64,000 bases of DNA from Lachnospiraceae bacterium (GTDB lineage: Bacteria > Bacillota > Clostridia > Lachnospirales > Lachnospiraceae), in contig JAILNS010000031.1 in NCBI GenBank assembly GCA_024691305.1, positions 64,657 through 128,656 of the forward strand. Reading direction: 5' to 3'. Below are positions 119 to 25,224 of the stretch, piece by piece (within the stretch, counting starts at the first letter, position 1; every line of letters starts with the position of its first letter). Both the position numbers and the translations under genes were made by a program. The notes beneath the pieces were generated by a model, which was given only the letters and a program-made list of their open reading frames with translations, was not told the DNA's origin and did not search any database.

Positions 119-126
119 TCTTTTTG

Positions 127-194
127 CATTTCGTGTATTTTTTTCATACATCTCGTGCGCAGATTCGTATTAGCTTGATTTACCATGATACATT
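127..194 (+). promoter_or_regulatory. LytTR-type direct-repeat operator plus extended -10 promoter for the surface-protein gene
   Basis: 9-bp direct repeats CATTTCGTG (127-135) and CATCTCGTG (149-157) with a 13-bp spacer, then ATTCGTAT (163-170) and TGaTACATT (186-194). The same layout, with the same 31-nt distance from repeat 2 to the -10 hexamer, recurs at 3646-3712. Confidence 0.55.
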
Positions 195-233: not shown

Positions 234-325
234 GGAATCATATAAATCTATAATTCTTGGAACGCCCGCTCCATCGAGCCAAGTCTATAGTCCATCAACT
301 TTACCTATTATAGGAGGGATTTAAA

Positions 326-3300
326 GTGAGAAAAAAGAACTTGGCAAGTCAGAAAGTTATCAAAGCGATCACAATCGGTTTATCGGCATTCATGGCACTT
401 TCACAGCCTATGGCTATTTTTGCGGAAGGTGATACCAATCAGGATGTATCTCAGTCTGACAGCCAGCAGAAAGTGGATCAGACTGCTGCTACTCCGAGTA
501 CTGCCACCGTTACTTCCGGTAATGCAGTTACAGCCACTGTAGAAGCAGATGAAGCCGTAAAAGCAGCAATGGGTGGAAATTATGAAGAAACTGCACAAAC
601 GCAACCGGAAGTGTCTATGGTTGAGACTTTAGACGGTGTTGTACCGGTGACTCCGCCAGTGTCACAGGATACAGTAGCTACGCCTGACACAGCTAAGCCT
701 GACCCATCAGCAGTTAAGGATGCAACGGATTCTAAGATTGAGAAAATAGATAAGAAGCTGACCGATGCTGATTTAGCATTGGAGGGCAAGGATGCAACAG
801 AAGGAAATACAGAGATTGAAGGTATCAAAGATCAAGTAGAGGATCTTTATAAACTCAATGCTGATGCTGACAAGGCTGTAAAGAATTATGAAGATAAATT
901 AGATAACGTTGAAGGGACAAATATAACATTAACAGGTTCCCTGGCGTACACTGCAGCGACAGCGGCGACTACAGCTGAAGGAGCAGCTAGTGCAGCAGTC
1001 ACAAATATGAATACAGCAAAAACAGATGCAGATAAGGTCGAAAGTATGGCTTCTGCAACATATGTGGGCCAGGCTGCTGCAATACAGGCACAAAATGAGG
1101 CTGCAAAGATAGCCGGCGATGCAAAGGACAAGGCTGATGCGGCAAAGGCAGAACAAGCCAAGGCTGAGCAGGCTGTGACTGATGCACAAGGTGCTGTTGA
1201 TGAGGCTACACAGAAAGTCGAAGCAGCACAGAAAGCATTTGATGATGCTACAGGTAAAGTCGAAGCAGCACAGAATAAGTTTGATGAACTCATAAAAGCA
1301 TATGGCTTGGAAAATGTTCTTTTGGATGAGAAAGGCAACCTGATTCTTGACGACAACGGAAATCCCAAGGGTATCGGTGACGGGTTGGTTAAAGCAGCAA
1401 TTTCCGCTTCATGGGATGCACTTCAGCTGGCTAAAGGCGATCAGAGTGAGGCAAAGACCGGGCTTGAGACGGCAAAGAGCGAGCAGTCGAAAGCAGCAGA
1501 TGCTGTAACCAAAGCAGAGAAGGCTCTTGAGGATGCAGAGAAACTAGCCCAGGATAATCAGGCAGCTTATGCAAAGGCAGCAAAAGACCTTGAAAGGGCT
1601 AATCTTATAGTCGAAGTTAATGAGTCGGAAAAGAAAAAGAGTGATGCTTATAAAGATTACATCAACTTTTATTATATACCTTATCTTAATGTTGTTGCTT
1701 CTAGCAACCTATCGTCAGCCAATGATGAACTGGCCCAAAAGCTGATCAAGTTCAAGCTGTATGAAGAGGGAATAGACACTAATGATATAAGATTTGGTAA
1801 TGAAGGAAGCAATATAACCGTTACTTACGGACCTGATGATGCACTTGTTACCAGGCGTTTTACCTATGCATCATATTATGGGTGGCTTGATGTCAGTGAG
1901 ATTAAACAGACTAAAGTCGGAAATAAGGAGGTAATAATAAGATCTTACTATACTGATAAATCCGGAACAGAAGTAACAATTCCTGAAAATGCAAAATTAA
2001 AAGAGGATAAAGAATCACAGCCACAAAATGATTACTATTATAAAAGCGAAATAAGCATTAAACAGCCGGTAAGTGAGAGAACGATTCTTGTAGATGCTTA
2101 TTATAATGGACGAAAGCTTAAAAAGGAAAACTATAAATATGTGGAAAAGGATCAGTATGGATATTATATCCCGGACCAGTGGGGATTTGGAAAAAATTAT
2201 CTTTATAATGTCGAAACACGTACTGAATACTATTATACTGATGATAATGGCGAAGAGCATATAGTTAAAGATAATAAATTGGATAGAGTAACTGAATATT
2301 ATTATGTAGATTCATATATAGATAATAGTACCGGACAAACGAAAACTAAAATTTGTGTTGTCAATAAAGATGACACATTAGTAGATCCAATATTTGGCCA
2401 TAGAACCATTATTGTAAATGGACAACCTAAAGACGTTTTAGAGAGACCAGCTTACTATACAAATATTAAACAAGAACGCAAAGTAGTTGTGTATCTGCAT
2501 AATGTTACCGAACAAATACCGATATATACGGATACATACACTTCATTATGCAAGGAATGGGATTACTATAAAGCCAATAAAGACATAACAGCTGACACTG
2601 TAAATAATAAGGAGAAAAAGTTATATGATGATTTAAATGCTATAGTAAATTATAACAAGACAGAACTCCAGAATGCATCAGACAATGCTAAACAAAAAAA
2701 GGCTGAAGCAGACCAGAAAGTTGCAAATGCAACAGCGGCATTAGATGTTCTTACAGCTAAGAATGAAAAAGTGCAGAAAGCATATGATAAAGTCATGGAG
2801 GCAATTAACGCACTTAAGGCAATGCAGAAGATAGCAGGAGTCAGCGAAGAAGCACTTCAGAATATGAAGAATAATCTTGCGGCAGCTGAGACCAGTTTAG
2901 AGAAGGCTCAGGAAGAAGCAGGTAAAGCTGAAGAAGCAGCAACTGCAGCCGTGAAAGAAGCAGATAGGGCAGCAGAAGCAGCCAAGGCTACATTTAAGTT
3001 CGTTACTCCCGCAACTCCTTCAACAGGCGAAGATATACAGACAGAGGTTTCCGGTGATATTAATGCCGGTGGCAGTACATCAACAACTCCTTCCGTAACT
3101 CCTTCAACCGTACCCACACGTGTAGCAGGTTCAGTACCGGAAGGCACTGGTGCACTACTTACTCCTAACGTAGAAGCAGGTGTGGCAGGAGCACGAACAG
3201 GAAGAAATGCAGGTGCAGGAAGAGCCGTTGCAGCAAACGGTAACGGAAATGTACGGATCGGAGATGATCAGGTAGCTCTTGCAGGCGATCTTGAAGAAGC

Positions 3301-3520
3301 TAAGGCTGATGTGGCTGAGGAGGCCGTTGCAGAAAGCACAGATAATAAGCCTGCAACAGCAATTATAGAAGAAGGAGAGATTCCTGCGGCTCAGTCTATA
3401 GAAGAAGGAGCCCTCACCTGGTGGATATGGCTTCTTGTGGTAATGGCAGCTGCAGCCGGCCTGGGTGTCTATAAATATACTGATAATAAGAAAAAGAATC
3501 AGAATCAGCCTACTGAATAA
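326..3520 (+). CDS. Large secreted, membrane-anchored coiled-coil surface protein (1064 aa)
   Basis: GTG start preceded by AGGAGGG. N-terminal signal peptide (…LSAFMALSQPMAIFAEGD). Two long Ala/Lys/Glu-rich coiled-coil blocks flank a Tyr/Asn/Lys-rich central region. A Pro/Thr/Ser linker leads to a C-terminal TM helix (WWIWLLVVMAAAAGLGVY) and a basic tail. No LPXTG motif. Confidence 0.85.
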   Translation: MRKKNLASQKVIKAITIGLSAFMALSQPMAIFAEGDTNQDVSQSDSQQKVDQTAATPSTATVTSGNAVTATVEADEAVKAAMGGNYEETAQTQPEVSMVETLDGVVPVTPPVSQDTVATPDTAKPDPSAVKDATDSKIEKIDKKLTDADLALEGKDATEGNTEIEGIKDQVEDLYKLNADADKAVKNYEDKLDNVEGTNITLTGSLAYTAATAATTAEGAASAAVTNMNTAKTDADKVESMASATYVGQAAAIQAQNEAAKIAGDAKDKADAAKAEQAKAEQAVTDAQGAVDEATQKVEAAQKAFDDATGKVEAAQNKFDELIKAYGLENVLLDEKGNLILDDNGNPKGIGDGLVKAAISASWDALQLAKGDQSEAKTGLETAKSEQSKAADAVTKAEKALEDAEKLAQDNQAAYAKAAKDLERANLIVEVNESEKKKSDAYKDYINFYYIPYLNVVASSNLSSANDELAQKLIKFKLYEEGIDTNDIRFGNEGSNITVTYGPDDALVTRRFTYASYYGWLDVSEIKQTKVGNKEVIIRSYYTDKSGTEVTIPENAKLKEDKESQPQNDYYYKSEISIKQPVSERTILVDAYYNGRKLKKENYKYVEKDQYGYYIPDQWGFGKNYLYNVETRTEYYYTDDNGEEHIVKDNKLDRVTEYYYVDSYIDNSTGQTKTKICVVNKDDTLVDPIFGHRTIIVNGQPKDVLERPAYYTNIKQERKVVVYLHNVTEQIPIYTDTYTSLCKEWDYYKANKDITADTVNNKEKKLYDDLNAIVNYNKTELQNASDNAKQKKAEADQKVANATAALDVLTAKNEKVQKAYDKVMEAINALKAMQKIAGVSEEALQNMKNNLAAAETSLEKAQEEAGKAEEAATAAVKEADRAAEAAKATFKFVTPATPSTGEDIQTEVSGDINAGGSTSTTPSVTPSTVPTRVAGSVPEGTGALLTPNVEAGVAGARTGRNAGAGRAVAANGNGNVRIGDDQVALAGDLEEAKADVAEEAVAESTDNKPATAIIEEGEIPAAQSIEEGALTWWIWLLVVMAAAAGLGVYKYTDNKKKNQNQPTE

Positions 3521-3550
3521 ATGCTTATACATAGGTTAAAGGGATGGAGT

Positions 3551-3586
3551 AAAAGGGAACTGCTCATTTGAGTGGTTCCCTTTTAC
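3551..3586 (+). terminator. Rho-independent terminator after the surface-protein gene
   Basis: AAAAGGGAAC (3551-3560) pairs with GTTCCCTTTT (3575-3584); the T-rich 3' side runs into the tail. Confidence 0.7.
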
Positions 3587-3645
3587 ATGAAATGAATATA
3601 TAAAAGCATGAATTCAACAAAAGAGCCTGTATTCAAACGTTTTCG

Positions 3646-3712
3646 CATTTTGTGCACACAAAGCAGCATTTCGTGCACAGTTTCGTATGGGATCATGTTA
3701 TGATGGTACATT
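3646..3712 (+). promoter_or_regulatory. LytTR-type direct-repeat operator plus extended -10 promoter for the phosphorelay operon
   Basis: CATTTTGTG (3646-3654), a 12-bp spacer, CATTTCGTG (3667-3675), TTTCGTAT (3681-3688) and TGgTACATT (3704-3712). This is near-identical in architecture to 127-194. Confidence 0.6.
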
Positions 3713-3754
3713 AGAAACAGTTTAGTGTAGTTTTTTGATAAACAGGTGATTCAT

Positions 3755-4465
3755 ATGCGTATAGCGATATGTGATGACAGCAAGATAGATGCCAAGAGGA
3801 TCAATTGGGCTCTTATGGATCTGAGTAATGATCTGGAAACGGATTATTATCCTTCCGGACATGATCTTATCGATGCACTTAAAAACGGCGAGAAATTCGA
3901 CGCGGTATTTCTTGATGTGTATATGCCCGGTGAATTCGGTGTTGATGTTGCGGAGCAGTTAAAAGCGATCTCTCCAAGGACAGATATCATCTTTTGCACA
4001 TCAAGTAAGGAACATGCAGTCGATGCGTTCAAGGTTGAGGCTATAGATTATCTGGTTAAACCTTTTGAAGAGATCGATGTGGTCAAGGCTCTGGCACGAG
4101 TTAATCTGGCAGCGGAGATGAGAAGCAACTCCCCTATCATGCTAAAGAGCGGTTCGGAGATCCTTATTTTCCCTCCCGAAAGTGTCCTCAGGATAGAGAG
4201 TGATAAGCATTATACGATCATAACCAAAGCGGATGGCGATTCCGAGAGAGTCCATATGGGTTTCTCGGCTGTATATGATCTTTTCCGGGACAGGTTCATG
4301 CTGATCAAGAGAGGTCTTAGTGTATGCATGGATCATGTTGAGAAGATAGTCGGAGACGTTGTCTATATGAACGATGGCTCATCTTACATCATGAGCAGGG
4401 CAAATAAAGACCAGATCATAAATCAATTCCTGGGATATATGGAGAATAAGAAATACAACAAGTAA
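3755..4465 (+). CDS. LytTR-family response regulator (REC + LytTR DNA-binding domain)
   Basis: Receiver residues are present: CDD, FLDVYMP, CTSS, LVKPF. The C-terminal ~100 aa has a LytTR-like pattern (…VLRIESDKHYTIITKADG…LIKRGLSVCMDHV…). SD AGGTGA (3744-3749) favours ATG 3755 over the GTG at 3746 listed in the ORF track. Confidence 0.85.
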   Translation: MRIAICDDSKIDAKRINWALMDLSNDLETDYYPSGHDLIDALKNGEKFDAVFLDVYMPGEFGVDVAEQLKAISPRTDIIFCTSSKEHAVDAFKVEAIDYLVKPFEEIDVVKALARVNLAAEMRSNSPIMLKSGSEILIFPPESVLRIESDKHYTIITKADGDSERVHMGFSAVYDLFRDRFMLIKRGLSVCMDHVEKIVGDVVYMNDGSSYIMSRANKDQIINQFLGYMENKKYNK

Positions 4466-4481
4466 GGGAGAGTAAACAGTA

Positions 4482-4943
4482 ATGGCCAAATTTGATGACG
4501 AGATAATGGAGTTTGCACCGGCAGGGAATGATGATAGCACTTCCGGTTATCCGGAAGGATATGAAGACGATATTATAAATGCAGTTGCAGGCATAGGACT
4601 CGATACCGAAGCCGGACTTAAATACAGCTACGGGGATAAGGCTTTCTATGTTGAGATAATGGGAGATTATATAAACGAATACGCAGATAAGAGTACCAGA
4701 CTTGAATCCTATTATGAAGGAAATGTATACAGGGAATATCAGGTGCTCGTACATTCCATCAAGAGCACATCAAGAACAATAGGCGCTACGGCACTTTCGG
4801 AAGAAGCCAAAAGACTTGAAGATGCGGCCGCAGAGGAAAATGCTTCTTATATTAAAGAACATCATGAGCCTTTTATGAAAGAGTATGCCAAACTGGCCGG
4901 TGAACTGTCGGCTGTCATGAATAAGGAGAGGATTAGTGGCTGA
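4482..4943 (+). CDS. Stand-alone Hpt (histidine phosphotransfer) protein
   Basis: Hpt signature VLVHSIKSTSRTIGATALSEEAKRLEDAA. SD AAGGGAGAG lies upstream. Confidence 0.8.
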   Translation: MAKFDDEIMEFAPAGNDDSTSGYPEGYEDDIINAVAGIGLDTEAGLKYSYGDKAFYVEIMGDYINEYADKSTRLESYYEGNVYREYQVLVHSIKSTSRTIGATALSEEAKRLEDAAAEENASYIKEHHEPFMKEYAKLAGELSAVMNKERISG

Positions 4944-7317
4944 TTGGGTAATAGTCGTTGATGATGATACCGAAAATCTGAAACTTGCGGGGAGTATATT
5001 AAGTAAGAACGGGATGCGCGTTACTGCACTTAAATCGGGAAACACATTCCTTGAATATATTAAGGAACACGGTGAACCGGATATCGTGCTTCTTGACATA
5101 ATGATGCCCGACATGGACGGGTTTGATACGCTCATCCGTTTGAGAAACTATGAAGAGAGCAGCGGATCGGGGTCTGTTCCGGTCGTATTTCTTACTGCAG
5201 ATGAGAACCGTCAGCATGAAATGCGCGGTTTCCAGATGGGGGTCTCGGACTTTATTCATAAGCCTTTCGATCCGGATATCTTTGCACAGAGAGTTGCCAA
5301 TATAATCGCATCAAGCAAAAAGATGATAAGCATCGAAGAAAAGGCAACTCATGATGACCTTACGGGATTTCTGACCAAGGATCCCGCAAATGAACAGATA
5401 TCTTCCATGTGTCTGAAGGAATTCGGAAGTCTGTGTATGATAGATCTTGATTCTTTTAAGCTTGTAAACGATATGTACGGTCATGAAATGGGAGACCGCG
5501 TTCTGGTCAAGTTTGCGGATGTTTTGCGCGCAAATATGACAGAAGGCAGCATCTGCGGACGAATAGGCGGCGATGAGTTTTTGCTTTTTGCCCTGAACAT
5601 GCAAAGAGAAAGCGATATAGCCTCATTTACAGGAAGGGTAAATGACGGATTTACGGATGCGGCCAAGGAACTGCTCGGAGAAGATCACAGGATACCGCTC
5701 GGTGTTTCTATAGGTGCCGTATCCGTTCCAAAACAGGGAACCGAACTGGATGAGCTTTTTAACATGGCCGACAAGGCTTTGTATACGGTAAAAGATAACG
5801 GAAAGCACGGTTATGCTCTGTATCATGACGAACACTTAAATGCCATGACGGATGCATCCGGAGCCTATATGGATCTTAAGACCCTGTCCAAAATGCTTGA
5901 GGAAAGAAGCATTCCCCAAAGCGTTATGTGGATGGGACGTGAGGCGTTTGGAAATGTATACCGTTATATGATGCGCTACCTGGAAAGATATGATATTTCC
6001 GCATATAAGGTTCTGTTTACTCTGTGTCACAAGGACAAGGATATTACGGATGAGCAAAGGGAAGAAGTGGCGGATTCTTTCAGGGAAGTCATACAGACCA
6101 CCTTACGAAACAGCGATATCATGGTCAGGATAGGCATCGACCAGTTTTTTCTGCTCCTGCCCGAACTTAATCCCGAACATATAGACAGAGTCATAAACAG
6201 GATGTCGGGAGCATGGAAAAAGAGTAACCAGGGCCCTGCGACCGAACTTGAACTTGAGTATGACAGGATAGCCTCAGACTCACGTCATGATATTAAAAGT
6301 TCAGGCAGCGATTCAGATCTTGTGGTAGTCGTGGATGATGATCACAGCAATCTCATGATGGCGGAACGTATCCTCAAAAAAGAAGGCATGAATGTCGAAT
6401 GCATAGGGTCGGGTACCGAACTCCTCGAATATGTTCAGGATCATGATCCCGCACTCATACTTCTTGATGTAAATATGCCCGGAATAGACGGCTTTGAGAC
6501 CATGCAGCGTCTTACATCCAGGGGAGGGCGGATCGCCAGGATACCCGTCATCTTCCTTACCGCAAATGATGATGATGAGACCGAGACACAGGGTTTTGTC
6601 ATGGGGGCCATGGACTTTATACGTAAGCCTTTTGTTCCGGAGATACTTATAATGCGTGTAAAACATGCGATCAGTCTGATAAGGCTCCAGAACCATCTAA
6701 AGAGTGAAGTCAGTGAGAAGACAGAAGAGAACGAAAGCCTGTCGCTTCATATAATCCAGGCACTTGCATCTGCGGTCGATGCCAAGGACATGTATACGAG
6801 CGGTCATTCCGGAAGAGTGGCTGAATATGCGCGCATGATCTCAGCAAGATACGGATATGATGAGGAAGCTCAGGATAAGATATATATGATAGGCCTGCTC
6901 CATGATGTGGGCAAGATCGGTATATCGGATGCGATCATCAACAAGGTCGGAGCTCTTGATGATAAGGAATATGAGATCATCAAGACTCACCCTGTACAGG
7001 GGGCCAAGATACTTGGCAAGATCAAGGAGATGCCCGAACTTGTGATAGGCGCTAAATGGCACCATGAAAGATATGACGGCAAAGGTTATCCCGACGGACT
7101 TACCGGTGAAGATATACCTGAAGAAGCCAGGATAATAGCAGTAGCCGATTCATACGATGCAATGACCAGCAGAAGGAGTTATCGTGATGCACTTCCTCAG
7201 GAGAAGGTCAGATCCGAGATAGTCAACGGAAAAGGTACTCAGTTCGATCCTAAATTCGCTGAAATAATGCTTGAACTGATCGATGAAGATACTCAGTACA
7301 GTATGCGGGAAGAATGA
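4936..7317 (+). CDS. REC - GGDEF - degenerate GGDEF-like - REC - HD-GYP protein (dual-receiver c-di-GMP synthase/phosphodiesterase)
   Basis: GTG start after AAGGAGAGG, overlapping the Hpt gene by 8 nt. REC1 (VVDDD…LLDIMMPDMDG…FLTAD…HKPF). Intact GGDEF at 5566-5580. A second GGDEF-like block carries GIDQF at 6133-6147. REC2 (VVDDD…LLDVNMPGIDG…FLTAN…RKPF). HD-GYP motifs HDVGK (6901-6915) and HHERYDGKGYP (7060-7092). Confidence 0.9.
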   Translation: MADWVIVVDDDTENLKLAGSILSKNGMRVTALKSGNTFLEYIKEHGEPDIVLLDIMMPDMDGFDTLIRLRNYEESSGSGSVPVVFLTADENRQHEMRGFQMGVSDFIHKPFDPDIFAQRVANIIASSKKMISIEEKATHDDLTGFLTKDPANEQISSMCLKEFGSLCMIDLDSFKLVNDMYGHEMGDRVLVKFADVLRANMTEGSICGRIGGDEFLLFALNMQRESDIASFTGRVNDGFTDAAKELLGEDHRIPLGVSIGAVSVPKQGTELDELFNMADKALYTVKDNGKHGYALYHDEHLNAMTDASGAYMDLKTLSKMLEERSIPQSVMWMGREAFGNVYRYMMRYLERYDISAYKVLFTLCHKDKDITDEQREEVADSFREVIQTTLRNSDIMVRIGIDQFFLLLPELNPEHIDRVINRMSGAWKKSNQGPATELELEYDRIASDSRHDIKSSGSDSDLVVVVDDDHSNLMMAERILKKEGMNVECIGSGTELLEYVQDHDPALILLDVNMPGIDGFETMQRLTSRGGRIARIPVIFLTANDDDETETQGFVMGAMDFIRKPFVPEILIMRVKHAISLIRLQNHLKSEVSEKTEENESLSLHIIQALASAVDAKDMYTSGHSGRVAEYARMISARYGYDEEAQDKIYMIGLLHDVGKIGISDAIINKVGALDDKEYEIIKTHPVQGAKILGKIKEMPELVIGAKWHHERYDGKGYPDGLTGEDIPEEARIIAVADSYDAMTSRRSYRDALPQEKVRSEIVNGKGTQFDPKFAEIMLELIDEDTQYSMREE

Positions 7318-7318
7318 T

Positions 7319-9850
7319 ATGAATAATAATTCCGAAGAGAACGAACTGTATAAATCTTCTCATATAATGATCCTCTTAAGCTATACCATGTTTTCCGTGA
7401 TACTGACCGCAGAGTCTCTTATCATGGGTTGGGAAAAATGGGCGATCCTGCTTATTGGCGCAGGTATTACGGGTGCATGGATCATACATATACAGAGCCG
7501 CTTAAGCAATAAGGGAAGGCTCTGGGTCTATTCCGTGCTTATGATGGTCACGTATTTCTTCTACGGGATACATCTTACGAGTACCTTTGATATAGCCATA
7601 GTCATGAGCATAGTCATTATGCTCTACACCATGTCCGGCGAAAAGGCGTTCATAGCGCTGTGCCAGGTGACTTTCTTCATAACATTTGCTTATGATATCA
7701 TCGCCATGATCATAGCGGGTGAGAAGTTTGACAGCCTGATCGTGACCAGGGCAATGCTTCATGTAGCCATGATCCTTATGGCGGGCTGGATCGCACGTAC
7801 GATCATAGATAAATGGAATGAGATGATCCGCCGCACAGGCTCAGAGATAAATCAGCTTAAGGTCCAGACTGACAGGTTGAATAACTTCCTTGCAAATGTC
7901 TCGCATGAGATCAGAACGCCTGTCAATGCCGTAATGGGCCTTTCTTCCATTCTGGAAAAAGCAGATCTGCCTGAAGATATACTTGATGACGTATCCGCAA
8001 TTTCCAAAGCGGGGCACCGTGTTGCCGAGCAGATGGGGGATATCCTTGATTACACCGAGATCGATATGGGCAAACTATCTGTCAGCAACGAACGCTACAT
8101 GATCGGTTCGCTCGTAAATGACTGCCTGACACAGTTGTCTTTTGCCGATGATCACGGAGTGGATCTGGTAGTTGACATGGAGGCGCAGACTCCGTCGGAA
8201 CTTATCGGAGACGCCGACAAGATCAAGAAGATACTCTGGCATCTGATCGTAAACGGATATAAATTCACCTCGGAAGGGGGCGTATATGCCCATGTATTTC
8301 CCGTTAAAAGAGAATACGGTATAAACCTGATCATTGAGGTGAAGGATACAGGAATAGGTATCGGTGAAGAGGAACTTGAGCATATATATGAAAGGTTCTA
8401 CCAGTCGGATTCCGGACAGACCAGAGCGGTCGGAGGCCTGGGACTCGGGCTGTCTATCGTTAACGGGTTCGTGAGCAGCATGGGCGGAGTCATGACTATA
8501 GAAAGCACTCCAAACGTCGGTACCACGGTCAGAGTAAGCATTCCCCAGCAAATATCGGATGAAGATCCATGTCTGTCTGTAGGAGATAAGGATAATTGTA
8601 AGGTTGCAGGATTCCTTGGTTTCATGACGACCGGTCATACGGAAGTCAGGGAATACTATATGAAGATGATCGCTCATCTCGTATCCGGGCTTTCTGTTCC
8701 GTTTAGCAGGGTGCAATCCATTGAAGACTTAAGATCGCTGGTCGAACGATCTGAGATAACCCATCTGTTTGTAGGGACCGGAGAGTATCTGGAAAACCGC
8801 AGTTATATAGAATCACTTACAGATAAGATGAATGTAGCGGTTGTTGCCGACAGGGGATTTGATGGAAAAACAGGACCGAGGATCACCCTTCTTGCCAAAC
8901 CTTTTTACGGGGCTCAGGTGGCTAACTTCTTAAATCATGCGTTTGAGATGGGTATATTCCTTGCGGAAGAGAAGATGAGGTGCCCGGGGTTAAAAGCCCT
9001 CGTTGTGGACGACGAGCCGATGAATCTGCTCGTTGCAAGAGGGATATTTGAAAGTTACGGAATGGAAGTCGAAACTGCCGCAAGCGGAGAAGAGTCCGTC
9101 GTAAAATGCAAGGAAAATACATACGATGTGGTCTTCATGGATCACATGATGCCCGGTATGGACGGAGTTGAAGCCATGAAGAGGATCAGAAATGAGATGG
9201 CTCATTCGGGAAAAGATATTTCCGTGATCGCTCTTACCGCAAATGCTATAAGCTCCGCCAAGGAAATGTTCATGGCCGAAGGATTTGACGGTTTTGTACC
9301 CAAGCCCATAGAACTGCCCGAACTTGAGCGGGTTCTTAAGCATGTACTTCCAAAATCTGCGATAGTATACGAGAAGATGATAGGTGAAGAACATGAATCC
9401 GGGGCCGAAACAGGAGAGACGGACGAGGCCCTTAAACCGGACGAGGCACTTAAACCGGATGAGGCACTTATACTGGACGAGGCTTTGGCACTCAAATACT
9501 GCATGGGTGACAGAGATCTGTATAATGCGCTCATTGCAGAATACGTTAATGACAGGGAGACCAAGGTCAAAACACTGAATGAACTGTACGAGGCACGTGA
9601 ACTTAAAGATTATGCGATAAAAGTTCATGCGATAAAGAGTACCTCCAAGACCATAGGCGCCATGAAGGTTTTTGAGGAAGCAAAGGACTTAGAAGCAGCT
9701 GCCAAGTCAGGTGATGAAGCATATGTTGATTCAAATCATCCCGGATTTATTAAGGATTACGAGAATCTTATGATAAGTCTTAGTCCCGGTGAAGATGGCG
9801 GGGACGAAGTCTTAGAGTTTGAACCCGAAGGAAGTTCTGATGACGAGTAA
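7319..9850 (+). CDS. Hybrid sensor histidine kinase (5-6 TM sensor, HisKA, HATPase_c, receiver-like spacer, REC, Hpt)
   Basis: H-box FLANVSHEIRTPVNAV. G-boxes DTGIGI and GGLGLGLSIV. REC (VVDDEPMN…FMDHMMPGMDG…ALTAN…VPKP). Hpt (HAIKSTSKTIGAMKVFEEAKDLEAAA). ATG 7319 lies 1 nt after the upstream stop; the ORF track's ATG at 7283 is the alternative start. Confidence 0.9.
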   Translation: MNNNSEENELYKSSHIMILLSYTMFSVILTAESLIMGWEKWAILLIGAGITGAWIIHIQSRLSNKGRLWVYSVLMMVTYFFYGIHLTSTFDIAIVMSIVIMLYTMSGEKAFIALCQVTFFITFAYDIIAMIIAGEKFDSLIVTRAMLHVAMILMAGWIARTIIDKWNEMIRRTGSEINQLKVQTDRLNNFLANVSHEIRTPVNAVMGLSSILEKADLPEDILDDVSAISKAGHRVAEQMGDILDYTEIDMGKLSVSNERYMIGSLVNDCLTQLSFADDHGVDLVVDMEAQTPSELIGDADKIKKILWHLIVNGYKFTSEGGVYAHVFPVKREYGINLIIEVKDTGIGIGEEELEHIYERFYQSDSGQTRAVGGLGLGLSIVNGFVSSMGGVMTIESTPNVGTTVRVSIPQQISDEDPCLSVGDKDNCKVAGFLGFMTTGHTEVREYYMKMIAHLVSGLSVPFSRVQSIEDLRSLVERSEITHLFVGTGEYLENRSYIESLTDKMNVAVVADRGFDGKTGPRITLLAKPFYGAQVANFLNHAFEMGIFLAEEKMRCPGLKALVVDDEPMNLLVARGIFESYGMEVETAASGEESVVKCKENTYDVVFMDHMMPGMDGVEAMKRIRNEMAHSGKDISVIALTANAISSAKEMFMAEGFDGFVPKPIELPELERVLKHVLPKSAIVYEKMIGEEHESGAETGETDEALKPDEALKPDEALILDEALALKYCMGDRDLYNALIAEYVNDRETKVKTLNELYEARELKDYAIKVHAIKSTSKTIGAMKVFEEAKDLEAAAKSGDEAYVDSNHPGFIKDYENLMISLSPGEDGGDEVLEFEPEGSSDDE
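9422..9487 (+). repeat. In-frame 18-bp tandem repeat (DEALKP x ~3.5) in the REC-Hpt linker of the kinase
   Basis: GACGAGGC(C/A)CTTAAACCG is repeated head to tail at 9422, 9440 and 9458, with a partial copy at 9476. Confidence 0.9.
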
Positions 9851-12500
9851 GGAAACCGGATATAAAAATAATACAGAGATGCTCCATTTTCTGATAATGT
9901 CGTTTCTTACCCTTCCCGCGATGTTTTTATATTATTTTGCGTCTTTTATATGGGATGTGAGACAGCGGGAAAAAGGCAATGAAATGCTTATTATGATAGG
10001 GATAATGATCATCTGTCTTGTTCTTGTCATAGTTGCCTTAAAAAGAGGTAATCCCGGGATCATTCCTGTTTTGATAGCGCTGATAGAGATCGTAGTGATA
10101 ATCCCGGAGAATGCACTCAGGGGGAACTTTAACCTCGGAGTAACGATGTGGTATGCAGCCGGAGTATTATATATAGTCACGCTCATAAAAGGCAGGATCA
10201 AATATGTTCTTTTTGCGATAGAGGCTGTGACTGCTGTGGTTGTTCATTATATGTTCTATACGAATGCATCCGGAGGAACAGCGCTTGCAGTAACAGAGTA
10301 TATCGCCGCATACATAGCAGCACTCATGGTCTGTGTGATGATAATAGTCATGGTCGAATATGAGATATATCTGCAAAAGACCGCAGTCCGTGATGCCGAA
10401 GAAAGACGGCGTGAGATAGAAGAATTAAACATGGCGCAGAATCGCTTTTTCTCAAGTATGAGCCATGAGATCAGAACACCCATAAATACGATAATCGGAT
10501 TCAATGAGATGATCTTAAGGGATGCTGTGTCGGAAGAAGTCGCAAACGATGCCGAGAATATCAAGTCGGCTTCCAAGATACTCTTATCTGTCATAAATGA
10601 TATCCTTGATATGTCCAAGATTGAGTCGGGACAGATGGAGATCGTTAATGAAGCATACGATGTAGGAGAGATGCTCTCTGAGATAGTTAATATGATGTGG
10701 GGAAGGGCTCATGAGAAGGGGATAGAGTTTAAGCTTGATATAGATCCCACACTTCCCGGGATGCTCTTCGGTGATGAGGTCCGTATTAAGCAGATACTCA
10801 TAAATCTGCTTAATAACGCCGTAAAATACACACGTGAAGGAAGCATAACACTGTCGATACACTGTGAAAAAAAGGCCGGGGACAAGGTTAAGGTCATATA
10901 TTCGGTCGAGGATACGGGCATGGGTATCCGCAGGGAGAATATCCCATATCTCTTCAATGCCTTCAGGCGTGTTGAAGATGAAAAGACCAGATATATAGAA
11001 GGAACAGGACTGGGACTTTCGATCGTTAAACAGCTCACGGACCTTATGGGCGGAGAGGTATCGGTAAACAGTATATATACCAAAGGATCTACTTTTACAG
11101 TGAGTCTGGAACAGGAAGCTGCGGGAGAAGAACTACTGGGTGAGTTTGATCCCAAACGGATCGGAAACGTTCATACGGAACACAGACACCACAGCAGGTT
11201 TGAAGCTCCGAATGCACGTGTGCTCATAGTGGATGATAACCGTGCGAATCTTATGGTCGCAGTTAAACTGCTTAAGGAAACACAGGTTCAGACCGTAACT
11301 GCCCAAAGCGGTGCGGAATGTCTGGAGCTTACCCTGGAGTCTCATTATGATGCTATTCTTATGGATCATCTGATGCCTGAAATGGATGGTATAGAATGCC
11401 TTAAATCCATACGTGAGCAGGCGGGTGGTATGTGCCGGGAAACACCGGTAGTGGTGCTTACGGCAAACGCGGCCACGGAAGACCAGAAGATGTACAAAAG
11501 TGCCGGGTTTGACGGGTACCTGACCAAGCCCGTAGAACCTGACAGGCTTGAAGAAATGCTCGCTGCTGTTCTACCTAAGGATCTTATCCATAACGAAGGT
11601 ACGGATAATGATGAATCCGAAAATGTCGATCAGATCAGAAGAGCCGGACGTAAGAGAGCTCTCATCATAACCACGGATTCGGTATGTGACCTTCCGCCCA
11701 GGCTCTTGCAGAGCTTTAAGGTGCCTGTGCTTTCATATAAGGTATATACGGATACAGGTATCTTTACGGACGGATATGAGGCCGAGGGCGATGTTATGGT
11801 CAGATATATGGCTGATACGGGAAGAACCGCCAGAAGCCGTGCTCCCGAAGTATCCGACTATGAGAATTTCTTTGCGGAACAGCTGTCTTATTCGCAGCGT
11901 ATCATACATATAACGATGGCACGCGGGTCAAGTAACGGCTATGCAAACGCATGTGAGGCCGCAAGGTCTTTTGCCAATGTCAAGGTATTTGATTCCGGAC
12001 ATCTTTCAAGCGGTATGGGACTTATGGTACTTACTGCAGCCGGGATGGTTGATTCGGGGCAAACAGATCCCGATGTGATATTAGATGCACTTCTTAAGAA
12101 AAAAGAACGTATATCGACTAGCTTCATGGTTGAAAGTACCGATTATCTCTACCGGGGTGGCAGGATGCCCGAGCGGATAAACAGGCTGTGCACGTCTCTT
12201 ATGATCCACCCTGTGATATCTCTTAAGGACAGCCGCATGCGAATATCCGCGGCCGTGATCGGAGGAAAAGAAAGAACCAGAAGACAGTATATGAAAAGAA
12301 CTTTCCGTGATGCGGGCAATATAGACAGGAGTATACTGTTTATCACTTATGCCGGCATGAAAAAGGCCGAGCTTGAGGAGATCAAAAAAGAAGTATCCAG
12401 GATGATCATTTTTGATAAGGTATGTATCCAGAAAGCCTCTCCTGCGATATCAATAAACTGCGGACCGGGAAGTTTCGGACTGATATTTGCAAGAAAATAG
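9840..12500 (+). CDS. Hybrid sensor histidine kinase with C-terminal DegV (FakB-like fatty-acid-binding) domain: TM sensor - HisKA - HATPase_c - REC - DegV
   Basis: H-box FFSSMSHEIRTPINTI. G-boxes DTGMGI and GTGLGLSIV. REC (IVDDNRAN…LMDHLMPEMDG…VLTAN…LTKP). From ~11658 the DegV motifs appear: TTDSVCDL, FDSGHLSSGMG, YLYRGGRM, NCGPGSFGL. No Hpt domain. ATG 9840 overlaps the upstream gene by 11 nt; the ORF track's 9819 start is non-ATG. Confidence 0.85.
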   Translation: MTSKETGYKNNTEMLHFLIMSFLTLPAMFLYYFASFIWDVRQREKGNEMLIMIGIMIICLVLVIVALKRGNPGIIPVLIALIEIVVIIPENALRGNFNLGVTMWYAAGVLYIVTLIKGRIKYVLFAIEAVTAVVVHYMFYTNASGGTALAVTEYIAAYIAALMVCVMIIVMVEYEIYLQKTAVRDAEERRREIEELNMAQNRFFSSMSHEIRTPINTIIGFNEMILRDAVSEEVANDAENIKSASKILLSVINDILDMSKIESGQMEIVNEAYDVGEMLSEIVNMMWGRAHEKGIEFKLDIDPTLPGMLFGDEVRIKQILINLLNNAVKYTREGSITLSIHCEKKAGDKVKVIYSVEDTGMGIRRENIPYLFNAFRRVEDEKTRYIEGTGLGLSIVKQLTDLMGGEVSVNSIYTKGSTFTVSLEQEAAGEELLGEFDPKRIGNVHTEHRHHSRFEAPNARVLIVDDNRANLMVAVKLLKETQVQTVTAQSGAECLELTLESHYDAILMDHLMPEMDGIECLKSIREQAGGMCRETPVVVLTANAATEDQKMYKSAGFDGYLTKPVEPDRLEEMLAAVLPKDLIHNEGTDNDESENVDQIRRAGRKRALIITTDSVCDLPPRLLQSFKVPVLSYKVYTDTGIFTDGYEAEGDVMVRYMADTGRTARSRAPEVSDYENFFAEQLSYSQRIIHITMARGSSNGYANACEAARSFANVKVFDSGHLSSGMGLMVLTAAGMVDSGQTDPDVILDALLKKKERISTSFMVESTDYLYRGGRMPERINRLCTSLMIHPVISLKDSRMRISAAVIGGKERTRRQYMKRTFRDAGNIDRSILFITYAGMKKAELEEIKKEVSRMIIFDKVCIQKASPAISINCGPGSFGLIFARK

Positions 12501-14338: not shown

Positions 14339-14366
14339 TCCATACGGCAGGATACTTTGACACCTT

Positions 14367-15953
14367 ATGGATATTATGGATAACGGGAACGGGCGTACAA
14401 ACATAAACAGAATATCCGATGCAGTCGGTTTGATATGTTTCATTATCGGAGCAGGTGTCCTTTTTAGGACTGCCTGCTTCGTTTTGTCAGAAGATATCTG
14501 GTTTGACGAACTGTTTACCGCACAGCTTGCATCCAAACCATTCGGGCAGATGATAGAACTGGATTCTGCAGATGTGCATCCTCCGCTTTATTATTTGATA
14601 GTCAGGCTGGTTTACATAATCTTGCATCCGCTGACCGGTATGAGCAGTGTTGTTGCTTCCAAGATCGCATCCATCATTCCGTATGTATTTACTTTTGCTT
14701 ATCTGCTCACATATGTACGCAAACGCTTCGGGCTGCTTGCGGGCGGTATTGCCTTTTTACTTATGGAGACAATGCCCCATATGAGTGAATATATGGTCGA
14801 AGCAAGGATGTACTCATGGAGCGCATTTGTTCTTCTTGCTATGTTCATACATGCGATGGAGTTTTTGGATGAGGGCAGATACCGTCATATGATATTTATG
14901 CTTATTTACGGTATAGCGGGTATGTATCTTCATTATTATGCTTTGATAGGAGCCGGTATCATAGCTGTCGGAACGACCGTGATAAGTTTTGTCAGGGGAG
15001 CCGGACGTAAGGTGAGGATATCCTTGTGCGTATGTATGGCAATTGCACTGATTGCTTATATTCCGTGGATAGGAGCCATGTCAGGGCAGGTCGGACAGGT
15101 TTCCGCAAGCTATTGGATCCAGCCGGTTTCCGTAAGGACGATCGCGGGAAGTGCCAAATATATTTTTATGCCGCAGTTTGAAAACAGCATTCTAAGTTAT
15201 GCATGTGCGGTAGTGATGATCCTTGCATATGTATTTACGGTTGGAAGATTCATATTTATCCATGCCCGTAAGAAACAGTTCTTTGAATGTACTTATGTGG
15301 CGGGTTCTGTGATGATCCTGATACTTCTTGTTTTGGCAGGGATCGTGGCATCGGTTATTATAAGGCCTGTTTTCGTATACAGATACATGTTTCCGGCCAT
15401 GTTTATTTTTTGGCTGGGAGCTGCAGTGTCGCTTGCTTATAATGTGACATCCGACATATCAAGATACGGTGTCAGGGGTGTTTTGTGGATAGCAGTTATT
15501 GCGGTTTACATAATTTCGTGCGTGCGCTGCTTTAATCTGTTCAGGTGGGAAGAAGCACGTAAAAATCAGGGAATGAAAGATTTTGGCACTGTGATCGAAG
15601 AGGTCCAAAATGAATATCCGGATACGATGGTAGTATGCAATTTTAATCAGGTTCAGGCGATCATGTGGAACTATCTGGATAATGACAGTATCCTCTGGGG
15701 ATATACCGACGAGACCCTGATCGGGGATATATGTGACAGATCGCCCATGGTAATGACGGAAGATATTGATGAACTAAAAAGCACGGTAGAAGCCGGCGGA
15801 CAGGACAGTTTTCTTTTCTTTGGAAGCGGTAATGCCAGAGAGGAAATTTTGGACTATTGGGAATCTAACGGAATGTTTACAAAAATGTTACAAGATAGTT
15901 GCTTTTTAGAGCGGTATTATATTAATATATATGAAGTTAGGTTCGAAAGGTAA
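14367..15953 (+). CDS. Polytopic membrane glycosyltransferase, GT39/GT83 (ArnT/PMT-like) type
   Basis: ~12 predicted TM helices. N-terminal loop motif DIWFDELFT…DVHPPLYY is typical of GT-C lipid-linked-sugar transferases. A soluble C-terminal domain follows. Confidence 0.6.
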   Translation: MDIMDNGNGRTNINRISDAVGLICFIIGAGVLFRTACFVLSEDIWFDELFTAQLASKPFGQMIELDSADVHPPLYYLIVRLVYIILHPLTGMSSVVASKIASIIPYVFTFAYLLTYVRKRFGLLAGGIAFLLMETMPHMSEYMVEARMYSWSAFVLLAMFIHAMEFLDEGRYRHMIFMLIYGIAGMYLHYYALIGAGIIAVGTTVISFVRGAGRKVRISLCVCMAIALIAYIPWIGAMSGQVGQVSASYWIQPVSVRTIAGSAKYIFMPQFENSILSYACAVVMILAYVFTVGRFIFIHARKKQFFECTYVAGSVMILILLVLAGIVASVIIRPVFVYRYMFPAMFIFWLGAAVSLAYNVTSDISRYGVRGVLWIAVIAVYIISCVRCFNLFRWEEARKNQGMKDFGTVIEEVQNEYPDTMVVCNFNQVQAIMWNYLDNDSILWGYTDETLIGDICDRSPMVMTEDIDELKSTVEAGGQDSFLFFGSGNAREEILDYWESNGMFTKMLQDSCFLERYYINIYEVRFER

Positions 15954-15957
15954 TCCC

Positions 15958-25184: not shown

Positions 25185-25224
25185 AATTAGACAACTATTT
25201 ACTTGTCATTATGAGGTGGATTTA

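What the first reader, a model, noticed from the sequence alone, without database searches (positions are those of the whole stretch)
3646..12500. Five-gene translationally coupled, multi-branch phosphorelay operon linking a LytTR regulator to c-di-GMP turnover
Gene junctions are +16 nt (4465/4482), -8 nt (4943/4936), +1 nt (7317/7319) and -11 nt (9850/9840). I see no terminator before 12500. The five genes therefore read as one transcript from the promoter at 3646-3712.

Together they encode:
- 2 kinase cores
- 5 receivers with intact acidic pocket/T/K residues
- at least one degenerate receiver-like spacer
- 2 Hpt domains
- three outputs (LytTR DNA binding, GGDEF, HD-GYP) plus the DegV module

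The kinase that lacks its own Hpt (9840-12500) is complemented by a free Hpt gene (4482-4943). This is far more branched than a two-component pair. It joins transcriptional and second-messenger control in one operon.
Basis: partly seen in the sequence, partly recalled or inferred. Interest (0 to 1): 0.75.

Follow-up and report, generated by a model that had tools for sequence, protein, structure and literature searches.

The report
Two-kinase relay with fatty-acid-binding domain
The five-gene signalling operon is real, and its last two genes are a pair of membrane kinases, one fused to a fatty-acid-binding-type (DegV) domain, that is kept together in at least 69 species' genomes of gut and rumen Clostridia and has apparently never been described.

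Summary
Five same-strand genes (3755-12500) have junctions of +16, -8, +1 and -11 nt. They encode two kinase cores, five intact receivers, two Hpt domains, LytTR, GGDEF, HD-GYP and DegV.

The five-gene block is not conserved as such.
- **Conserved core:** g4 (6TM-kinase-pseudoreceiver-REC-Hpt) lies directly upstream of g5 (6TM-kinase-REC-DegV) in 69 of 71 informative species loci. It is usually preceded by a g3-REC2-type receiver, alone or fused to HD-GYP.
- **g3:** a fusion of two regulators that are separate genes elsewhere. Its degenerate GGDEF domain keeps an invariant RxxD c-di-GMP site.
- **g2:** the free Hpt matches the C-terminus of a third hybrid kinase that occupies its position in the nearest relatives, so it is probably a deletion remnant.
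- **g1:** LytTR occurs only in the closest clade. The same 21-22-nt-period direct repeats precede both the operon and the upstream surface-protein gene.
- **DegV domain:** it carries a family-wide change, with the carboxylate-binding His replaced by Asn and two new His residues.

Best model: a LadS-to-GacS-type two-kinase relay that switches c-di-GMP turnover and LytTR transcription, with DegV linking it to fatty acids, as in Rpf/DSF. I found no paper on this architecture.

The parts
126..161 (+). Pair of direct repeats (GCATTTCGTGTATT / ACATCTCGTGCGCA, 22-nt period) upstream of the surface-protein gene. Putative LytTR-regulator boxes.
   Evidence: The core CATYTYGTG occurs 8 times in 64 kb against 2.3 expected (0 of 100 shuffles reach 8). 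Four of the eight form the two tandem pairs. L086 has an exact GCATTTCGTGCACAG upstream of its positional orthologue.
326..3520 (+). 1064-aa secreted, C-terminally anchored protein with no Pfam or NCBIfam family. Likely target of the LytTR regulator.
   Evidence: A positional orthologue lies upstream of the LytTR gene in L086/L087 and is similar only at the signal peptide and the anchor. NCBI annotates it as a hypothetical protein.
3549..3586 (+). Terminator-like hairpin that closes the upstream gene.
   Evidence: 18-nt arms, 89% complementary. (-26.6 kcal/mol, z -6.7).
3645..3704 (+). Operon promoter region: two 14-nt direct repeats (3645-3658 and 3666-3679, 21-nt period) followed by an extended -10 element, TGTTATGAT (3696-3704).
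   Evidence: It aligns with the 118-200 region.
3755..4465 (+). g1: REC-LytTR response regulator (D54, T82, K102).
   Evidence: the 100%-identical NCBI protein is named LytTR family, and homologues carry PF04397.
4482..4943 (+). g2: free Hpt protein (His91, HSIKSTSRTIGA) with an N-terminal acidic DEIMEFAP motif. Probable remnant of a third hybrid kinase.
4936..7317 (+). g3: REC1 (D54) - GGDEF (GGDEF intact, no RxxD) - degenerate GGDEF (GIDQF, RNSD I-site; nt ~5833-6285) - REC2 (D511) - HD-GYP (HD, HHERYDGKGYP).
   Evidence: The fusion of two genes that are separate elsewhere is shown.
7319..9850 (+). g4 (HK4): six predicted TM segments - HisKA (H196) - HATPase - pseudo-receiver (aa ~425-540, nt ~8591-8938) - REC (D608) - Hpt (H770) - acidic DEVLEFEP tail.
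9840..12500 (+). g5 (HK5): six predicted TM segments - HisKA (H209) - HATPase - REC (D509) - DegV (aa 610-885, nt ~11667-12497). No Hpt.

Best explanation
This is an autoregulated signalling operon of a rumen- or gut-type Lachnospiraceae bacterium. It is built around a conserved, undescribed two-kinase module.

**Shown**
- g4 and g5 are membrane-embedded hybrid kinases. Each has six TM segments with short loops and no periplasmic domain.
- Their catalytic and phospho-acceptor residues are invariant across 70 and 78 orthologues.
- g4 and g5 are translationally coupled almost everywhere.
- The gene upstream of g4 nearly always begins with a receiver of the g3-REC2 type.

**Inferred mechanism**
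1. Each kinase autophosphorylates and passes the phosphoryl group to its own receiver.
2. g5 has no Hpt, so it hands the phosphoryl group to the Hpt of g4, as LadS does to GacS and PvrS does to RcsC. In this genome it may also use the leftover Hpt, g2.
3. Hpt~P then phosphorylates g3-REC2, which switches on the HD-GYP c-di-GMP phosphodiesterase.
4. In this lineage Hpt~P also phosphorylates g3-REC1, which controls the GGDEF cyclase, and the LytTR regulator g1.
5. The degenerate GGDEF domain of g3, with its invariant RxxD, senses c-di-GMP and gives feedback.
6. g1~P binds the paired direct repeats and activates both the operon and the neighbouring surface-protein gene.
7. The DegV domain behind the g5 receiver binds a fatty acid or a related lipid. 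This couples the relay to fatty-acid or membrane-lipid status, either as an input that gates the receiver or as an output that the receiver controls.

The net logic resembles the fatty-acid-responsive RpfC/RpfG (DSF) switch of Xanthomonas, but the parts are different.
For: **Anatomy and motifs:**

**Synteny:** HK4 lies directly upstream of HK5 in 69 of 71 informative loci, mostly with a 4-nt overlap. The upstream gene is REC-only in 26 loci, REC-HD-GYP in 23, and the fused REC-GGDEF-dGG-REC-HD-GYP in 8. A REC-GGDEF-dGG gene lies downstream in 6 loci. The upstream receiver is g3-REC2-like in 25/26 and 19/23 cases.

**Breadth:** at least 193 stretches in the species-representative genome set encode a relative of the REC-DegV part.

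**Ancestral arrangement:** L086 reads surface protein - LytTR - HK3 - g3 - HK4 - HK5. L005 reads HK3 - g3 - HK4 - HK5 - HerA.

**I-site:** RxxD is invariant in 18/18 degenerate GGDEF domains and absent from the active one.

**Repeats:**. AgrA, a LytTR-domain regulator, binds as a dimer to paired direct repeats next to its promoters (PMC4227749).

**Precedent for the Hpt hand-over:** hybrid kinases that lack Hpt use the Hpt of an unorthodox kinase (PMC5812489).

**DegV:** 142 bits. The equivalents of the FakB fatty-acid contacts Thr, Ser and Arg are kept: S666, S698 and R775.

**Rpf precedent:** RpfC senses the fatty acid DSF (title and abstract of PMC5391125). That RpfG is a REC-HD-GYP regulator rests on established knowledge.
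Against: - No phosphotransfer, ligand binding or transcript has been measured. Every arrow after 'domains present and conserved' is inference.
- The carboxylate-binding His of FakB (His270 in FakB1, His266 in FakB2) is Asn in 77/78 family members. Fatty-acid binding is therefore not assured.
- g1 and the repeats are confined to the nearest clade, and L086 shows only one clear box.
- In 26 loci the partner is a bare receiver with no c-di-GMP domain, so c-di-GMP is not the universal output.
- The 3' end of the transcript is open.
- No profile similarity links the two TM domains convincingly (hhalign probability 9%).
Confidence: 0.55

Rival explanations
1. g5 is a self-contained fused two-component system. 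Its kinase phosphorylates its own receiver, and that receiver's only job is to control the attached DegV domain, for example the release or presentation of a fatty acid to the Fak/PlsX pathway. It does not feed any Hpt. g4 alone drives g3 and g1.
For: - DegV sits where response-regulator output domains normally sit, directly C-terminal to REC.
- The REC-DegV junction is conserved throughout the family.
- g5's kinase and receiver are only 30% identical to those of g4.
Against: - g5 is welded to the Hpt-bearing g4 in 69/71 loci, usually with overlapping stop and start codons. That is hard to explain if the two do not interact.
- Its closest paralogue (HK3, 41-42% identity) has an Hpt exactly where g5 has DegV. 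The receiver lineage is therefore one that talks to Hpt domains.
Confidence: 0.25
2. The free Hpt (g2) is the dedicated partner that completes the Hpt-less kinase g5, which makes the five genes an integrated, co-evolved unit.
For: - g2 is intact and has a start codon and a ribosome-binding site.
- It derives from the Hpt of HK3, whose kinase and receiver are the closest paralogues of g5's (41-42% identity). g5-REC to g2 transfer is therefore plausible.
- L003 also keeps a free Hpt upstream of g3.
Against: - A free Hpt is present in only 2 of about 75 loci that have g5.
- In the nearest relatives the position is occupied by a whole third kinase.
- g2 is only 42% identical to that kinase's tail, whereas g3 and g4 are 64-67% identical to their L086 orthologues. 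This fits relaxed constraint or new function, not an ancestral partnership.
Confidence: 0.15
3. The genes are merely neighbours. They are several independent signalling proteins of the kind that is abundant in Lachnospiraceae, each with partners elsewhere, and internal promoters split the block.
For: - Weak sigma-70-like matches exist inside g4 and g5.
- The same window holds another HK-REC-Hpt gene plus a receiver gene at 27134-31134, so such genes are common here.
Against: - Overlapping or 1-nt junctions.
- Promoter-like and terminator-like hits are at or below chance level.
- The order of g4-g5 and of the upstream receiver is conserved across at least 69 species.
- Partners that are separate elsewhere are fused in g3.
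Confidence: 0.05

Closest known systems
RpfC/RpfG (DSF) system of Xanthomonas
   Same: Both have a polytopic membrane hybrid kinase with REC and Hpt encoded next to a REC-HD-GYP c-di-GMP phosphodiesterase. In both, fatty acids are the proposed or known cue. RpfC senses the fatty acid DSF (title and abstract of PMC5391125). That RpfG is the REC-HD-GYP regulator rests on established knowledge.
   Different: No sequence family links the membrane sensors: Pfam found nothing for either TM region. No RpfF-type synthase was seen. Here there are two kinases, a pseudo-receiver, and a cytoplasmic DegV domain as the candidate lipid-binding part. The organisms are Gram-positive Clostridia.
LadS-to-GacS and PvrS-to-RcsC kinase-to-kinase phosphorelays of Pseudomonas aeruginosa
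   Same: A hybrid kinase without Hpt is paired with an unorthodox kinase whose Hpt connects it to the output regulators (PMC5812489). The best structural match of the g4 receiver is the GacS D1 domain (7qz2).
   Different: Here the two kinases are encoded head to tail and are translationally coupled. The Hpt-less one carries a DegV domain. Transfer is inferred, not shown.
ShkA of Caulobacter (kinase - pseudo-receiver - receiver)
   Same: The predicted g4 pseudo-receiver plus receiver aligns over 268 columns with full-length ShkA (6qrj). In ShkA the pseudo-receiver binds c-di-GMP and activates the kinase (PMC7010744 and PMC6969517). The present operon also makes and breaks c-di-GMP.
   Different: ShkA is cytosolic and has no Hpt. 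Sequence identity is about 20%. c-di-GMP binding by the g4 pseudo-receiver is untested.
FakB / DegV fatty-acid-binding proteins
   Same: The g5 C-terminus is a full-length DegV domain (142 bits). It matches TTHA DegV 2dt8 and S. aureus FakB2 4x9x. The equivalents of Thr, Ser and Arg in the carboxylate network are kept.
   Different: Known members are free-standing soluble proteins that work with FakA. This one is fused behind a kinase and a receiver. It has Asn for the carboxylate-binding His (77/78) and two family-specific His residues, H721 and H790.
AgrA/ComE-type LytTR response regulators
   Same: REC-LytTR architecture. Paired direct repeats lie next to the promoter of the regulator's own operon and of a target gene. 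AgrA binds paired direct repeats (PMC4227749). The ComE comparison rests on established knowledge.
   Different: g1 is fed, by inference, through an Hpt rather than by a dedicated peptide-sensing kinase. No peptide-pheromone genes were seen.

Membership tests
His-Asp-His-Asp phosphorelay (hybrid/unorthodox histidine kinases) | H-box His, N/G1/G2 ATP-binding boxes, receiver DD/D/T/K, and Hpt His in an HxxKxxxxxxG context | tested here: met
   These residues are invariant in 70 (g4) and 78 (g5) orthologues. g2 His91 and g4 His770 lie in the motif H(S/A)IKSTS(R/K)TIGA.
His-Asp-His-Asp phosphorelay (hybrid/unorthodox histidine kinases) | Actual phosphotransfer between the encoded domains | not testable with these tools
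   This needs in vitro profiling of two kinases against two Hpt domains and five receivers.
LytTR-family response regulator | REC plus a LytTR DNA-binding domain above the Pfam threshold | tested here: met
   PF04397 scores 23.2-25.2 bits against a cut-off of 22.6. Homologues carry PF04397, and NCBI names the identical protein LytTR family.
LytTR-family response regulator | Paired direct-repeat binding sites adjacent to the regulated promoters | tested here: inconclusive
   Candidate sites are present and non-random. One box is conserved in L086. Binding itself is untested.
GGDEF diguanylate cyclase | Intact GG(D/E)EF active-site motif | tested here: met
   RIGGDEF at g3 residues 209-215. The motif is conserved in all orthologues.
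GGDEF diguanylate cyclase | RxxD inhibitory site five residues upstream of the active-site motif | tested here: not met
   The active domain has TEGS at that position. The second, degenerate domain has RNSD at the canonical spacing, invariant in 18/18.
HD-GYP c-di-GMP phosphodiesterase | HD dyad and the HHExxDGxGYP motif | tested here: met
   PF13487 scores 113 bits. HDVGK and HHERYDGKGYP are present.
DegV / FakB fatty-acid-binding proteins | Full-length DegV (EDD-fold) domain above the curated thresholds | tested here: met
   PF02645 scores 142 bits and TIGR00762 151 bits. There are PDB matches to DegV and FakB structures.
DegV / FakB fatty-acid-binding proteins | Carboxylate hydrogen-bond network Thr62-Ser95-His270 plus Arg173 (FakB1 numbering, PMC8892158) | tested here: not met
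   S666 (S/T in 73/78), S698 (66/78) and R775 (50/78, otherwise Q/K) are kept. The His is Asn873 in 77/78.
DegV / FakB fatty-acid-binding proteins | Bound fatty acid, and function with the FakA kinase | not testable with these tools
No FakA gene was looked for beyond the genes scanned.
Rpf/DSF-type signalling | Hybrid sensor kinase with Hpt encoded next to a REC-HD-GYP regulator | tested here: met
   REC-HD-GYP, alone or within the g3 fusion, lies directly upstream of g4 orthologues in 31-32 loci.
Rpf/DSF-type signalling | Homology of the sensor region to RpfC, and presence of an RpfF-type signal synthase | tested here: not met
   There is no family hit for either TM region at E up to 10. No crotonase-type gene was found among the neighbours scanned.
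ShkA-type kinase with a c-di-GMP-binding pseudo-receiver | Receiver-fold domain without a phospho-acceptor, located between the catalytic domain and the true receiver | tested here: met
   AF2 models have pLDDT 87-89.5. Foldseek finds 6qrj over 268 columns and CheY-like folds at TM 0.60-0.65. The acceptor position is G/A, and K-P is kept in 69/70. A profile-profile test against REC gave no signal.
ShkA-type kinase with a c-di-GMP-binding pseudo-receiver | c-di-GMP binding by the pseudo-receiver | not testable with these tools
   This needs a binding assay.

The most novel reading that the evidence does not exclude
The kinase-REC-DegV protein defines a new class of receiver-coupled lipid-binding module. 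Together with its obligate Hpt-bearing partner kinase, it would form a fatty-acid-responsive c-di-GMP switch in gut and rumen Clostridia, a Gram-positive functional counterpart of DSF/Rpf signalling built from unrelated parts.

A more extreme version is also not excluded. The family-wide replacement of the FakB carboxylate His by Asn, and the gain of two conserved His residues, could reflect new chemistry at the lipid head group. One example would be phosphoryl transfer from the adjacent Asp~P to the bound carboxylate, which would make acyl-phosphate without FakA.
Probability: 0.25. Interest if true: 0.8.

Novelty: new variant of a known kind. Interest (0 to 1): 0.6.

Why it matters
Long-chain fatty acids are major, often toxic, cues in the rumen and gut. 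How Lachnospiraceae and Oscillospiraceae sense them is largely unknown. This locus points to a module, conserved in at least 69 species, that physically joins a DegV-type lipid-binding fold to a His-Asp relay, and in many lineages to c-di-GMP enzymes.

If the DegV domain binds fatty acid, three consequences follow:
- It would give a testable route from diet or host lipids to c-di-GMP-controlled traits such as surface proteins, adhesion or motility in abundant commensals.
- It would add DegV to the list of receiver-linked domains.
- It would extend the 'hybrid kinase borrows its neighbour's Hpt' design from Pseudomonas to Firmicutes.

The locus also shows stepwise rewiring. Two regulators fuse into g3. 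A third kinase collapses to a free Hpt. In one relative the kinase pair is lost altogether.

Tried and rejected
**Riboswitch upstream of the surface-protein gene.** Rfam found nothing at E up to 10 on 1-400. Only one tRNA appears in the whole window. The leader does not fold better than shuffles.

**Spacer in g4 as a receiver by sequence.** Pfam gave nothing. hhalign against the REC profiles gave probability 0.3%. Only predicted structure shows the fold.

**Are the g4 and g5 TM domains paralogous?** hhalign probability is 9%, so this is unresolved. No Pfam family was found for either.

**Closer relatives with the exact five-gene order.**
- The metagenome scan with g2 found none.
- Apart from the identical NCBI protein, the nearest g1 homologues are 53-57% identical.
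- The exact-protein contig look-ups for g2 and g1 failed, although the cluster look-up finds the NCBI MAG proteins.

**Is the hybrid kinase at 27134-30376 the missing third kinase (HK3)?** No. It is a 42-44% paralogue, and its Hpt is only 30% identical to g2.

**PF24896 (Receiver_CRE1) as a label for the spacer.** It hits the true receiver, not the spacer.

**Literature.** There are no papers on DegV joined to a histidine kinase, a receiver or c-di-GMP signalling.

**Protein-database hits to g4 and g5 pieces.** All were shorter than about 600 aa. Two were inspected. One lay beside a separately called kinase gene and one overlapped a sensor-domain ORF, so they look like gene fragments. They were not used for architecture counts. 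The genome loci were used instead.


Full report
**1. Observation**

- g1 3755-4465
- g2 4482-4943, a 16-nt gap after g1
- g3 4936-7317, an 8-nt overlap with g2
- g4 7319-9850, a 1-nt gap after g3
- g5 9840-12500, an 11-nt overlap with g4

The NCBI call for g5 is also 886 aa.

HMM scans confirm the inventory.
- g1: REC-LytTR
- g2: Hpt
- g3: REC-GGDEF-(degenerate GGDEF)-REC-HD-GYP
- g4: HisKA-HATPase-(135 aa without a family)-REC-Hpt
- g5: HisKA-HATPase-REC-DegV

All five receivers have the acidic pair, the phospho-acceptor Asp, and the Thr and Lys. The g4 Hpt is below the Pfam threshold. It is nonetheless 37% identical to g2 over 115 residues (E 7e-24), and its His is invariant.

Promoter-like and terminator-like matches inside the block are at or below the number found in shuffled sequence. 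A strong hairpin (-26.6 kcal/mol, z -6.7) ends the upstream gene at 3549-3586. Nothing comparable follows g5 (z -0.9). The block is therefore bounded at its 5' end but open at its 3' end.

The source is an NCBI MAG labelled Lachnospiraceae bacterium, on a 236-kb contig. Four of the proteins have accessions between MCR5595441 and MCR5595446. They are annotated only as hypothetical protein, Hpt domain-containing protein, response regulator and DegV family protein. The identical g1 protein is named LytTR family.

**2. What is conserved**

I scanned one genome per species with a profile of the REC-DegV part of g5. This gave at least 193 relatives, of which 80 loci were kept. They are almost all Lachnospiraceae and Oscillospiraceae from rumen, rabbit, mouse and human gut.

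I classified all ORFs in these loci with the window's own domains.
- A g4-type gene (TM-kinase-spacer-REC-Hpt) lies directly upstream of the g5-type gene in 69 of 71 informative loci. The commonest junction is a 4-nt overlap.
- The gene upstream of g4 is a bare receiver in 26 loci, REC-HD-GYP in 23, and the full g3 architecture in 8.
- A REC-GGDEF-degenerate-GGDEF gene lies just downstream of g5 in six loci.

g3 is therefore a fusion of two regulators that are separate genes elsewhere. This is classical evidence that both belong to the same pathway.

The first receiver of the upstream gene is most similar to g3-REC2 in 25/26 bare receivers and 19/23 REC-HD-GYP genes. This points to one conserved cognate receiver lineage.

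Catalytic and phospho-acceptor residues of both kinases are invariant in 70 and 78 orthologues. Each N-terminus has six predicted TM segments with short loops and matches no known sensor family.

**3. What is lineage-specific**

LytTR genes and free Hpt genes are absent from nearly all of those loci.

The closest g1 relatives are 53-57% identical and show the ancestral arrangement of this clade.
- **L086:** a 1278-aa protein with no family, then REC-LytTR, then a 1255-aa dCache-kinase-REC-Hpt (HK3), then g3 (67% identical), g4 (64% identical) and g5.
- **L005:** HK3-g3-g4-g5, followed by the same HerA-like ATPase, membrane protein and 280-aa protein as in the window.
- **L083/L084:** LytTR, a split HK3, and g3, then go straight to HerA. 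Here the kinase pair is missing.

g2 aligns over residues 7-149 with the last 145 residues of HK3 (42% identity, E 2e-32). The alignment includes the acidic D-I-I-E-F-A-P linker motif. g2 matches HK3 better than it matches the g4 Hpt.

There is no room for more between g1 and g2, only 16 nt. The simplest history is a clean deletion that removed sensor, kinase and receiver and left an expressible Hpt. g5's kinase and receiver are 41-42% identical to HK3 but only 30% identical to g4. A g5-REC to g2 transfer is therefore conceivable, but it cannot be the conserved solution.

**4. The two degenerate modules**

*The g4 spacer.* It has no sequence-level similarity to receivers. AlphaFold2 with a 55- or 26-sequence alignment gives a confident beta-alpha repeat fold (pLDDT 89.5 and 87.1, pTM 0.83).
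- Together with the true receiver, it aligns over 268 columns with full-length ShkA and with the tandem receivers of PleD.
- Alone, it matches CheY-like folds at TM 0.60-0.65 and 10-14% identity. These include the wing domain of lysine decarboxylases, NtrC1, PhoB and TadZ.
- It has Gly or Ala where the phospho-acceptor would be. It keeps the receiver Lys-Pro (69/70) and an invariant Glu-Tyr.

It is a pseudo-receiver.

*The second GGDEF-like domain of g3.* Its signature is variable and degenerate (GIDQF, SSEQF, YSSRQ and others). It has an invariant L-R-x-x-D exactly five residues upstream in 18/18 orthologues. The catalytically intact GGDEF has no RxxD. This is the layout expected for a c-di-GMP-binding regulatory domain.

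**5. The DegV domain**

It is a full-length DegV domain (142 bits). Its closest solved relatives are 2dt8 and FakB2 4x9x.

I mapped the FakB carboxylate network (Thr62, Ser95, His270 and Arg173 in FakB1; PMC8892158) through the FakB2 alignment.
- Thr maps to S666 (S/T in 73/78).
- Ser maps to S698 (66/78).
- Arg maps to R775 (50/78).
- His maps to N873 (Asn in 77/78).

Two further positions are His in this family: H721 (73/78) and H790 (71/78). In the three solved DegV proteins whose alignments I could see, these positions are K, Q or L, and K. The kinase-fused DegV domains thus form a distinct subfamily with an altered head-group site. I could not model it because I had no structure jobs left.

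**6. The promoter**

Two 14-nt direct repeats (GCATTTTGTGCACA and GCATTTCGTGCACA) lie 21 nt apart at 3645-3679. They sit just upstream of an extended -10 element.

A similar pair with a 22-nt period lies at 126-161, upstream of the surface-protein gene. The two regions align beyond the repeats, through CAG(A/T)TTCGTAT, then ATGAT, then ACATTA.

The 9-nt core CATYTYGTG occurs 8 times in 64 kb against 2.3 expected (0 of 100 shuffles reach 8). Four of those eight copies form the two tandem pairs. L086 has an exact GCATTTCGTGCACAG upstream of its positional orthologue of the surface protein.

Paired direct repeats next to the promoter are how the LytTR regulator AgrA binds (PMC4227749). That the family in general binds repeats of about this period is my own knowledge, not a result read here.

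**7. Mechanism (inferred)**

The most economical model is a two-kinase relay. g5 has no Hpt and uses the Hpt of its invariable neighbour g4. This is documented for LadS to GacS and for PvrS to RcsC (PMC5812489).

Hpt~P then goes to the REC2-type receiver. Depending on lineage this is a bare receiver, REC-HD-GYP, or the fused g3. In this clade it also goes to g3-REC1 and to g1.

The degenerate GGDEF I-site, and possibly the pseudo-receiver, would feed c-di-GMP levels back. The precedent for the pseudo-receiver is ShkA (PMC7010744).

DegV ties the relay to a fatty acid or related lipid, as input or as output.

The overall logic resembles RpfC/RpfG: a membrane hybrid kinase with Hpt plus REC-HD-GYP, with a fatty-acid cue (PMC5391125).

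The main rival is that g5 is a closed kinase-receiver-DegV unit that does not use any Hpt. I rate that at about 0.25.

**8. Novelty and verdict**

Every individual domain is known, and multi-kinase relays with c-di-GMP outputs are a known kind. Three things appear to be undescribed:
- the kinase-REC-DegV architecture,
- its obligate pairing with a pseudo-receiver-containing, Hpt-bearing kinase across many Clostridia,
- its His-to-Asn DegV subfamily.

Full-text searches for DegV with histidine kinase, receiver, output domain or c-di-GMP returned nothing relevant. I class the finding as a new variant of a known kind, of moderate to high interest.

The operon is real and branched. Its evolutionary unit, however, is the g4-g5 pair plus a receiver, not the five genes, and the free Hpt is a remnant rather than the designed partner of g5.

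Noticed in passing
window 4494-4520 (g2 N-terminus) and 9797-9823 (g4 C-terminal tail); also L003, L005, L006, L009, L010, L011, L043, L056, L064, L074, L079, L080, L082, L086: A short acidic motif, D-(D/E)-(I/V)-(L/M/I)-E-F-x-P, recurs in three places. It lies at the C-terminal tail of many rumen-clade g4 orthologues (up to 4-5 copies in L009 and L010), in the REC-Hpt linker of the third kinase HK3, and at the N-terminus of the free Hpt proteins. It looks like a docking peptide. Its function is unknown.
   Followed up: partly
window 255-290; L086 about 5985-6020: A leader element, TTCTTGGAACGCCCGC(T/A)CCATCGAGCC, lies about 40-70 nt upstream of the surface-protein start codon. It is conserved between the window and L086, although the proteins themselves differ in most of their length. 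It has no Rfam match, and the leader has no significant predicted structure.
   Followed up: partly
window 25216-31134: The same window holds a second, separate signalling cluster. It comprises an MCP-signal protein (25216-26985), a 1080-aa HK-REC-Hpt kinase (27134-30376) that is 42-44% identical to the HK3 and g5 kinase cores, and a 252-aa protein (30376-31134) with a C-terminal receiver and a receiver-like N-terminal half. A Macro-domain protein follows.
   Followed up: partly
L083 and L084 (contigs holding P0249): In this relative the order is LytTR, a split dCache kinase, then g3, which runs straight into the HerA-like gene. The whole g4-g5 pair is absent, and the third kinase is broken into two ORFs. 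The locus is therefore being remodelled by deletions in several lineages.
   Followed up: partly
g4 orthologues in L012, L017, L019-L023, L026, L029, L036, L039, L042, L045, L046, L048, L050, L053, L068, L069, L075, L078, L081: In the clade whose upstream gene is REC-HD-GYP, the g4 orthologues are 900-1000 aa long. They carry an extra C-terminal region of about 100 aa after the Hpt, with a conserved D-F-E-(F/Y) ... A-x-E-K pattern. The window's g4 lacks it. The region was not identified.
   Followed up: no
window 12620-16773: A HerA-like ATPase (HerA_C, 667 bits) with a long Ala/Glu/Lys-rich C-terminal tail is followed by a 528-aa polytopic membrane protein and a 280-aa protein without a family. 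This trio follows the signalling genes in the window, in L005 and in L083/84. No terminator separates it from g5.
   Followed up: partly
searches: No hit of the large protein search to pieces of g4 and g5 was longer than about 600 aa, although the genomic loci encode 800-1000-aa proteins. Two hits were inspected. P0071 lies 24 nt after a separately called kinase gene, and P0008 overlaps an upstream sensor-domain ORF and starts inside the ATPase domain. Domain architectures read from that table would be misleading.
   Followed up: partly
L001, L016 and L002: There are variations on the theme. L001 is interrupted or flanked by serine recombinase genes. L016 has a free-standing DegV gene just upstream of the receiver-g4-g5 block. 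L002 has a g5-type gene with an MCP-like PDC sensor domain and a divergent LytTR gene next to it.
   Followed up: no
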